Source: Octopus vulgaris
Lineage: Eukaryota
Reading direction: 5' to 3'
NCBI GenBank assembly: GCA_951406725.2
Contig: OX597816.1
Location: 47,926,001 to 47,990,000, forward strand
DNA length: 64,000 nt
In this document: one piece after another, positions 11,395 to 42,129 of the stretch
How the letters are laid out: every line of letters starts with the position of its first letter
Numbering within the stretch: position 1 is the first letter of the stretch
Program-made: the position numbers and the translations under genes
The notes under the pieces: model-generated
Seen by the model: only the letters and a program-made list of their open reading frames with translations
The model's database searches: none
Told to the model about the DNA's origin: nothing

Positions 11395-11515
11395 CACAGA
11401 GCTATGCGAGATTAAGTGTTTTGCTCAAGAACTCAACGCCCCACTCGGTGTGAGAATTGAAATCACAATCACTAGATTGTGAGTCCAACACCCTAACCAC
11501 TGGGTCATGGGCCCT
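11395..11515 (-). mobile_element. tRNA-derived SINE, family C, 5' fragment
   Basis: Reverse complement gives cagtggttagggtgttggactcacaatc...gatttcaattctc...ttcttgagcaaaacactt. Confidence 0.65.
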
Positions 11516-40708: not shown

Positions 40709-41404
40709 ATAATATATGTATATACTTATAGTAGTTGAAAAATATCATTATAGGTATAAATTATACCATAAACAATTATAGAAAAATGGAGGAGAGAAAG
40801 ATGTTGCATCAAAATTAGATTTAATGCAAAATAGAATTCAATACATACACACATTTCAAAGGACAAGGCAAATATGTAAGGAAAAATTATAATTATAGTA
40901 ATTATAATTAAATTTATGCATTGTCATTCTCATCAGTGTGAAGAATTTTTGGAAGGACATCAAAAAGGTTTAATAGAATAAATTAAAATAAGATACAATA
41001 AGGGAGAATACAAAAGGGGTAATAGGGAAAAATCAGATATTTACAAGCAAGTTGTAAAAGTGAAAAATTACAGAAATAATAATAGTGAGAGAGATGAAAG
41101 AGAAAAAAAGACAGACATATCAATGTGTATGCACGTCTATATGTGCAGTAAAATATAACATAAAAATAAGGATAAAAATCTAATGAATATGTTTAGGAAA
41201 ATGGTAACAGGTCGAGACAAAGTATAATATAAACAGGGCCATGTGTGTATAGTAGAATATAATGTAACAGGTGAATTAGCAGAAAAAAACCATAAAGAGT
41301 TATACATATACATATTAATATTGAAAAATGAATGCATCTCATTAGAAACAACATGGTCCCATTTTCTTCTTAAGAAAAAATATATTTTCATATAAATTAA
41401 ACAT

Positions 41405-41441
41405 TGTATCATGAATAGCAATTGCGAAACCGGTCGATACA
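41405..41441 (+). ncRNA. Minimal type I hammerhead ribozyme motif with A3-U8 core, GUC site
   Basis: tgtatc-ATGAATA-gcaattgc-GAAA-ccgg-TC-gataca. Stem I is a perfect 6 bp, and stems II and III are palindromic. Predicted cleavage after 41435. Confidence 0.7.
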
Positions 41442-41569
41442 TTAAAAATTATACTATAACCATGTAAGTGTGTGTATTTTCCGTTTTTATTTTATTTTTC
41501 ATATATACATTACAATCCACCACGTGGGGACAACCAAAATTCCTCTTTTCTGTTACTACTATATATAAA

Positions 41570-41750
41570 GCACCCACTACACTTATGGAGTGGTTGGCGA
41601 TAGGAAGGGCATCCAGCTGTAGAAACATTGCCAGATAAGACTGGAGCCTGGTGCAGCCTTCTGGCTTCCCAGATCCCCGGTCGAACCGTCCAACCCATGC
41701 TAGCATGGAGAACGGACGTTAAACGATGATGATGATGATGATGATGATGA
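41570..41750 (+). mobile_element. RTE-type short retroposon 3' part with (GAT)n tail
   Basis: ggagtggttggcgataggaagggcatccagc...aacccatgctagcatggagaacggacgttaaac(gat)n. Confidence 0.8.
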
Positions 41751-41789
41751 TATATATATATATATATACCGGAGTATATATAAAATAAA

Positions 41790-41831
<42 letters not shown>

Positions 41832-42129
41832 AAAACGAGGTTAAAAGTAATAGGCAAGGCTATGTTAGAAAAAAAGTTACAATATTTAAGTAAAAATGTA
41901 CATACAAGCAAAGAAAAAAACCTAAGAGGACTTAACAAGGAAAAAAACATTGATCTCAGACAAGACCGGCTGGTGTATTTGGGAGAGTTACTTGACTCAA
42001 AAACTAGCCCGGGAATAGAGAGACAATCAGAAAAAAAGTAGGAACAAAAATGAATATATGTATGAAGGAGAAAATTATTATAAATTTACAAGTGACAGAA
42101 AAAACATATACACTTAACATATAAGGATA

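What the first reader, a model, noticed from the sequence alone, without database searches (positions are those of the whole stretch)
41405..41441. Cleanest ribozyme candidate: 37-nt type I hammerhead with an A3-U8 core
Seen: a perfect 6-bp stem I (tgtatc/gataca) closing ATGAATA, palindromic stem II GCAATTGC, GAAA, palindromic stem III ACCGGT and a canonical GUC site. Positions 3 and 8 both differ from consensus yet stay complementary, which random decay is unlikely to produce. CpGs are retained in very AT-rich surroundings. The upstream A-rich tract (~40740-41400) may be a decayed Penelope ORF end (weak).
Basis: partly seen in the sequence, partly recalled or inferred. Interest (0 to 1): 0.75.

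Follow-up and report, generated by a model that had tools for sequence, protein, structure and literature searches.

The report
Penelope hammerhead with A-U core pair
A jumping-gene family with hundreds of copies in this animal genome carries a tiny hammerhead RNA motif whose usual C-G core pair is replaced by A-U, and related families carry the other three possible pairs, which likely means a self-cutting fold is being preserved, although cutting is untested.

Summary
The motif is real. It is the minimal type I hammerhead of a Penelope-like retroelement (RT, Cys linker, GIY-YIG). The window holds a 5'-truncated end of about 230 bp (41336-41567). A3-U8 is family-wide: 906 of 954 genomic pattern matches have A3, and 92 of 95 listed A3 copies have U8. 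Related families in this genome carry U3-A8, G3-C8 and (2 copies) C3-G8. Stem I also covaries, and the G3 family uses GUA instead of GUC. This points to selection on the active fold, which the common subfamilies are predicted to reach only as a dimer through ACCGGU.

- The upstream A-rich tract is another repeat on the minus strand, not this element's ORF.
- The palindromic stem II is partly CpG decay; stem II is a 2-bp hairpin.
- 3 of 8 CpGs are lost.

Cleavage is untested, and genomic copies show no pile-up at the cut site. Natural U3-A8 is published. I found no natural A3-U8 or G3-C8 in the papers I could read, but four key papers were not held. This scan noted A3-U8 before in other genomes (e1-9564841, e1-3482507). 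Verdict: new variant of a known kind.

The parts
41405..41441 (+). Minimal type I hammerhead motif with A3-U8 core pair (A3 41411, U8 41416), 6-bp stem I, 2-bp stem II with 4-nt loop, palindromic ACCGGU stem III (41429-41434), GUC triplet; predicted cut after 41435
41336..41567 (+). 5'-truncated 3' end (pLTR part plus tail and TA run) of a Neptune/Nematis-type Penelope-like element; 7 mismatches and 1 gap against relative L006
41500..41559 (+). Optional 3' tail of the element (about 55 nt, boundaries approximate); present in 34 of 67 A3 copies examined
40720..41335 (-).
41577..41753 (.). Flank: separate short interspersed repeat (97% to a copy in L058) inserted next to the element
41785..42129 (-). 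Flank: continuation of the second repeat family; the hammerhead element and the short repeat interrupt it at a (TA)n run
   Evidence: 5 of 7 host-family loci match both sides of the gap

Best explanation
This is the pLTR hammerhead motif of a Penelope-like retroelement family in which the core 3:8 pair is A-U, and it likely works as a slow self-cleaving ribozyme that is predicted to fold only when two copies pair through the palindromic stem III. Shown: the motif sits at the 3' end of an RT + Cys-linker + GIY-YIG element and also 174 nt upstream of ORF1 in 5' pLTRs, so tandem transcripts would hold two copies. Also shown: positions 3 and 8, and stem I, covary between families. Inferred: the 3:8 pair is a contact of the active core, so its covariation indicates selection for catalysis in master elements. 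A monomer is predicted to be off (A3 pairs with U16.1 and U4 with G16.2), and a double hammerhead, probably helped by the element's protein, would cut after C17 and free unit-length or circularisable RNA from read-through transcripts. Most insertions appear to be copied from uncut or re-ligated RNA. The window copy is a truncated relic about 3% diverged from a close relative and has no ORF; nothing suggests it does anything for the host.
For: Family-wide core: 906 of 954 pattern matches have A3; 92 of the 95 A3 copies among the first 100 listed have U8. In 28 of 30 loci selected only on sequence 3' of the cut (2 dropped for indels), A3 is in 27 and U8 in 27. Between families: 14 of 22 U3 matches have A8; a G3 family has G3 in 26 of 26 and C8 in 22 of 26; C3-G8 occurs in 2 copies with a similar short stem II. 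These states fall on separate branches of an RT/EN tree (G3-C8 clade and young U3-A8 clade at 100). In 16 hand-picked representatives the 3:8 pair is standard in 15, all 6 stem I pairs show double changes, and the covariation score is 0.54 against 0.16 shuffled and 0.06-0.12 slid. Position 17 mostly avoids the complement of position 3: G3-C8 copies have A17 (13 of 16) and never C17, matching the inhibitory C3-G17 pairing presumed in PMC3884650 (passages). The double hammerhead is the dimer minimum-energy fold for the GAUA-loop and GAAA-loop A3 forms and a U3-A8 form. Hammerheads in 5' pLTRs upstream of ORF1: L274, L280, L293. Precedent: PLE hammerheads cleave weakly as dimers (PMC4209133); a C3G/G8C double mutant partly rescues a protein-assisted PLE hammerhead (PMC11167929).
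Against: No cleavage data. No genomic footprint of cutting: only 2 of 582 matches to the post-cut sequence begin exactly at the cut. Copies within a family inherit one master sequence, so the independent evidence is only about three changes of the pair. The tree is midpoint-rooted, built from broken copies, and one row (L197) looks chimeric. Control (a) ignores relatedness and the rows were chosen by me, through patterns that fix the other core positions. A stem I mismatch (A-C) intermediate was itself mobile. Stem II is only 2 bp, and often 1 bp in the G3 family, for which the model prefers a non-hammerhead fold. For the window's own sequence a stem-II dimer (-21.2 kcal/mol) beats the double hammerhead (-18.1). 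No Rfam hammerhead match. In the anole PLE, hammerhead cleavage was dispensable for insertion in vitro. No complete pLTR-ORF-pLTR A3 element was recovered among the loci fetched.
Confidence: 0.6

Rival explanations
1. The hammerhead-like fold is selected for a non-catalytic job (for example a protein-binding or RNA-dimerisation element in the pLTR/5' leader), and cleavage is negligible.
For: No pile-up of copy ends at the cut site. PAc hammerhead mutants insert normally in vitro and no RNA-seq reads ended at the cut (PMC11167929). PMC4209133 leaves non-cleavage functions open. Very short stem II.
Against: The 3:8 pair is described as a contact of the catalytically active conformation (PMC3884650 passage), and it covaries here. 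H17 is kept and tracks position 3.
Confidence: 0.25
2. The motif is a drifting relic carried along by retrotransposition; A3-U8 arose by chance in one master and was amplified.
For: Copy number reflects amplification, not selection. Few independent changes. A mismatched stem I intermediate spread.
Against: Three or more double changes all land on Watson-Crick pairs. A3-U8 persists through successive subfamilies while N7, the stem II loop and stem I turn over. No family with a mismatched 3:8 consensus was identified, though one small group (L101, L114, L117, L118) is unresolved.
Confidence: 0.08
3. It is active, but through a different route: dimerisation by the palindromic stem II, or as a protein-clamped monomer.
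For: The stem II 8-mer self-duplex is -9.8 (window) or -9.2 (GAUU form) kcal/mol. PAc hammerhead is protein-assisted.
Against: GAUA and GAAA loops, the majority among listed copies, self-pair at only -2.7. The stem-II dimer keeps A3 paired to U16.1. Monomeric stem III would need a 2-nt loop.
Confidence: 0.07

Closest known systems
Minimal type I hammerheads of metazoan Penelope-like elements, variants with a small palindromic helix III (Cervera and De la Pena 2014, PMC4209133)
   Same: Type I topology, location in pLTRs, G10.1-C11.1 pair, palindromic stem III, mostly single truncated copies and inverted pairs, predicted dimer activity.
   Different: Core pair A3-U8 (they report C3-G8 and, in Schistosoma Cercyon elements, U3-A8). 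Stem II is 2 bp rather than large. No extra nucleotide between 9 and 10.1.
Natural U3-A8 hammerheads (Perreault et al. 2011, PMC3088659; Cervera 2014)
   Same: Natural compensatory change of the 3:8 pair; U3-A8 families also occur in this clade.
   Different: Here the pair is inverted to purine-3/pyrimidine-8 (A3-U8, and G3-C8 in a sister family); three pair types occur as multi-copy families and the fourth in 2 copies.
PAc (Poseidon) hammerhead of the green anole (Frangieh et al. 2024, PMC11167929)
   Same: PLE pLTR hammerhead near the ORF start; internal RT start giving an optional tail; 3:8 swap tolerated (engineered C3G/G8C partial rescue).
   Different: Canonical C3-G8; Penelope/Poseidon clade; ORF starts inside the ribozyme, whereas here ORF1 starts 174 nt after position 3.
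Chlamys-2_cBra hammerhead (Craig et al. 2021, PMC8557442, File S2)
   Same: Identical stem III and cleavage-site letters (A-CCGG-U, C17).
   Different: C3-G8 core, 6-bp stem II, and a different PLE clade with N-terminal endonuclease.

Membership tests
Type I hammerhead ribozyme | U4 G5 A6 N7 and A9, G12 A13 A14, A15.1-U16.1, H17 around a three-way junction | tested here: met
   (the total set was selected only on sequence 3' of the cut)
Type I hammerhead ribozyme | Watson-Crick pair between positions 3 and 8 | tested here: met
   A-U here; covaries to U-A, G-C, C-G in related families
Type I hammerhead ribozyme | Canonical C3-G8 letters / Rfam hammerhead model match | tested here: not met
   No hammerhead family at gathering score or at E up to 10
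Type I hammerhead ribozyme | Site-specific self-cleavage after H17 | not testable with these tools
   The indirect genomic footprint test was negative; available runs were contigs only
PLE minimal hammerhead (PMC4209133) | Located in the pLTR at both ends of a PLE ORF | tested here: met
   About 265-345 nt after the GIY-YIG stop in most A3 copies; upstream of ORF1 in L274, L280, L293
PLE minimal hammerhead (PMC4209133) | Short palindromic helix III requiring a dimer | tested here: met
   ACCGGU self-duplex -8.3 kcal/mol; double hammerhead is the dimer MFE in 3 of 7 forms tested; the dimer requirement itself is a prediction
PLE minimal hammerhead (PMC4209133) | Large helix II and an unpaired nucleotide between 9 and 10.1 (consensus traits) | tested here: not met
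   2-bp helix II with variable tetraloop, no extra nucleotide
EN+ Penelope-like element, Neptune/Nematis type | RT followed by C-terminal GIY-YIG endonuclease | tested here: met
   Pfam RVT_1 (28.9 bits, just under the 29.6 cut-off) and GIY-YIG (28.8, above cut-off) in L079
EN+ Penelope-like element, Neptune/Nematis type | CX2-5CxxC linker between RT and EN, and CCHH motif in EN (PMC8557442) | tested here: met
   By inspection of translations: CX4CxxC before the EN, two Cys between the GIY/YIG-like motifs and two downstream His
EN+ Penelope-like element, Neptune/Nematis type | 5' truncation, inverted partial copies, optional tail, (TA)n targets | tested here: met
   (TA)3+ follows 64 of 67 copies, tail in 34 of 67
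EN+ Penelope-like element, Neptune/Nematis type | RT phylogeny placing it in Neptune rather than Nematis | not tested
   No reference proteins were at hand; the protein-representative search was busy
Non-LTR retrozyme | Head-to-tail 170-400-nt non-coding repeats each with a hammerhead | tested here: not met
   Listed A3 matches are single or mostly inverted pairs; a separate 359-bp tandem family with C3-G8 exists in the genome

The most novel reading that the evidence does not exclude
One Penelope-like clade in a single genome has naturally explored all four Watson-Crick pairs at the catalytic 3:8 position and co-adjusts the cleavage nucleotide (G3 family: GUA) to avoid pairing with position 3. 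The core pair acts as an evolved rate dial, with A3-U8 additionally locking the monomer off, so that cleavage is slow, dimer- and protein-gated, and leaves enough uncut tandem RNA for reverse transcription.
Probability: 0.2. Interest if true: 0.72.

Novelty: new variant of a known kind. Interest (0 to 1): 0.5.

Why it matters
Whether the minimal hammerheads of Penelope-like elements are working ribozymes under selection is unsettled: they cleave poorly in vitro and were dispensable for insertion in the one reconstituted system. Covariation of an active-state pair across related families is sequence evidence that the catalytic fold matters, and it supplies a natural matched series (A-U, U-A, G-C, C-G) on an almost identical 37-nt scaffold for direct kinetic comparison. 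It also shows that CUGANGA-based searches and Rfam miss hundreds of such motifs in this genome. The individual window copy is an ordinary truncated insertion.

Tried and rejected
1. Upstream A-rich tract as this element's ORF end: rejected. No tblastn hit of the family proteins anywhere in the window. The tract is its own repeat family (621 first-look candidates), and the family's true upstream sequence is different.
2. Genomic footprint of cleavage: 28 of 582 post-cut matches lack the hammerhead directly upstream. On inspection most are an older subfamily with a longer spacer or copies with small deletions; only L219 and L220 start at the cut. No support for cleaved templates.
3. Rfam: no hammerhead match. 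Single-strand folding z-score is -0.27, so stability alone says nothing.
4. Expression: no RNA holder listed on record; the four runs laid were contigs, which cannot show ends or strand.
5. Search for a complete two-pLTR A3 element: none among 8 long stretches; L262 is a local duplication of a short copy. 5' pLTR-ORF1 junctions were found instead.
6. Clade assignment by protein search: machine busy three times; not pursued.
7. Literature: full-text searches for A3-U8, A3U8, C3A with G8U, positions 3 and 8, and AUGA/UUGA/GUGA core variants listed no paper on a natural A3-U8 hammerhead. Przybilski and Hammann 2007, Lunse et al. 2017, Nelson and Uhlenbeck 2008 and Arkhipova et al. 2017 were not held and may bear on novelty and on expected activity.

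Full report
Observation. The 37-nt motif is at 41405-41441 as described, with A3 at 41411, U8 at 41416 and a predicted cut after 41435. A descriptor allowing any Watson-Crick 3:8 pair hits once in the window and 0 times in 60 simulated 64-kb sequences. Rfam does not recognise it, and its monomer folding energy is unremarkable (z -0.27).

What it belongs to. The window lies in a 2.8-Gb genome. Other notes of this scan call it octopus-like; I did not test that. The stretch 41336-41567 is a repeat with 1351 first-look candidates. Copies share two alternative 3' ends, are followed by (TA)n in 64 of 67 cases, carry an optional tail in 34 of 67, have variable 5' ends and often occur as inverted pairs. 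Longer copies extend into an ORF with RT, a CX4CxxC linker and a GIY-YIG domain. In L274, L280 and L293 the same hammerhead precedes ORF1; position 3 is 174 nt before the ATG in L274. This fits an EN+ Penelope-like element of the Neptune/Nematis type as defined in PMC8557442 (passages, Introduction and supplement part 2 of 59). The choice between those two clades was not tested. A much younger sister family with long open frames (72% RT identity) shows the full pLTR-ORF-pLTR layout with two hammerheads 4617 bp apart. The A-rich tract at 40720-41335 is not this element's ORF. It is the minus-strand, pyrimidine-rich part of a second repeat that resumes at about 41785; the hammerhead element and a short repeat sit in its (TA)n run.

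The core pair within the lineage. A tight pattern gives 162 matches, and all 100 listed have A3-U8. A pattern leaving positions 3, 7, 8 and the stem II loop free gives 954 matches, of which 48 lack A3. Of the 95 A3 copies among the first 100 listed, 92 have U8. In 28 of 30 loci chosen only on sequence 3' of the cut (2 dropped for indels), A3 and U8 are each present in 27. Contigs from four runs under four organism labels list no variant at 41411 or 41416 above the 5% threshold, but do list the paired change at 41406 and 41440 in stem I. This within-family constancy mostly reflects inheritance from master copies.

The core pair between families is the informative part. Of 22 U3 matches, 14 have A8, and most of those examined belong to distinct families with their own stem I. 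A G3 family has G3 in 26 of 26 and C8 in 22 of 26 copies and is linked to the same kind of RT/EN. Two copies carry C3-G8 with a similar short stem II. The young sister family has U3-A8. A tree of 46 of 154 motif loci (those with at least 90 aligned residues) separates the A3-U8 series, the G3-C8 clade, the young U3-A8 clade and a group holding U3-A8 and C3-G8. It is midpoint-rooted, made from broken copies, and L197 looks chimeric, so it gives no direction, only a minimum of about three double changes. On 16 representatives chosen by me, the 3:8 pair is standard in 15, all six stem I pairs show double changes, and slid controls collapse; the shuffle control ignores relatedness. Position 17 mostly avoids the complement of position 3: among complementary-core hits A3-U8 has C17 in 86 of 91, G3-C8 has A17 in 13 of 16 and never C, and U3-A8 has U or C in 18 of 19. 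This matches the presumed inhibitory C3-G17 pairing (PMC3884650, passages), but it rests on few families and is only suggestive.

Corrections on stem II and CpG. The loop reads GAAA, GAUA or GAUU in different subfamilies around an almost constant 2-bp stem. The window's perfect palindrome comes from a CpG-to-CpA change at 41420. The copy has lost 3 of the 8 CpGs of its relative L006, with 7 mismatches and 1 gap overall.

Mechanism. In the energy model the monomer extends stem I by pairing A3 with U16.1 and U4 with G16.2, an off state. For the GAUA and GAAA A3 forms and one U3-A8 form, the two-molecule minimum is exactly the double hammerhead joined by ACCGGU. For the window and GAUU forms a stem-II dimer is 2.5-3 kcal/mol lower, and for two G3-C8 copies a non-hammerhead fold wins. 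I therefore infer a slow, dimer-dependent, probably protein-assisted ribozyme acting on tandem transcripts, as proposed or shown for other PLEs (PMC4209133, parts 1-2 of 4 and supplement file 2 part 1 of 3; PMC6765202, passages; PMC11167929, parts 1-2 of 4). Against a large role for cleavage, only 2 of 582 post-cut matches start at the cut, in line with the anole result that uncut RNA is the main template.

Comparison and novelty. Natural U3-A8 is in print (PMC3088659, passages; PMC4209133). G3-C8 appears as an engineered partial rescue (PMC11167929; PMC8495972, one passage). Searches listed no natural A3-U8, and the hammerhead table in the PMC8557442 supplement shows only C3-G8-type cores. 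Four relevant papers were not held, and one supplementary file of PMC4209133 could not be searched. Also seen, without bearing on the core pair: PMC2920678 (part 1 of 2), PMC7229834 and PMC10085705 (passages), bioRxiv 10.64898/2026.07.22.740005 (part 1 of 5). This scan already noted an A3-U8 Penelope family in another genome and an A3-U8 phage hammerhead, so A3-U8 alone is a repeat within the scan. What this genome adds is all four pairs in one group of related families. Verdict: real, a new variant of a known kind, activity untested; interest 0.5.

Noticed in passing
L129-L153, L116, L125 (e.g. G000:C8:96868458-96868758): Penelope-like family with a natural G3-C8 hammerhead core (22 of 26 copies) and GUA cleavage triplet; stem II often has only one Watson-Crick pair.
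   Followed up: partly
L094-L098 (e.g. G000:C9:2165500-2175300): Very young Penelope-like family with many long open frames (up to 782 aa), an upstream 365-aa ORF1 without a Pfam match, a U3-A8 hammerhead with an extra A after GAAA, and a complete pLTR-ORF-pLTR unit of 4617 bp plus inverted partial copy.
   Followed up: partly
L154-L183 (e.g. G000:C1:20002279-20004541): Tandem 359-360-bp repeats each with a canonical C3-G8 type I hammerhead and the same ACCGGU stem III, a non-LTR retrozyme-like family; most of 103 pattern matches.
   Followed up: no
window 40720-41335 and 41785-42129, minus strand: Second repeat family with a long pyrimidine-rich segment; one copy (L053) has a GIY-YIG-like frame further upstream, so it may be another Penelope-like element.
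   Followed up: partly
L063:806 (-), L069:2622 (+): Other minimal C3-G8 hammerhead motifs with longer stem II and CG stem III, probably pLTR remnants of further Penelope-like families.
   Followed up: no
window 11450-11507, minus strand: Weak partial Rfam tRNA match (33.4 bits), likely a tRNA-derived SINE head.
   Followed up: no
L204-L231: Older A3-U8 subfamily with a roughly 15-nt longer segment just 3' of the cut; its loss in other subfamilies replaced the 3' strand of stem I, and the 5' strand changed to match.
   Followed up: partly
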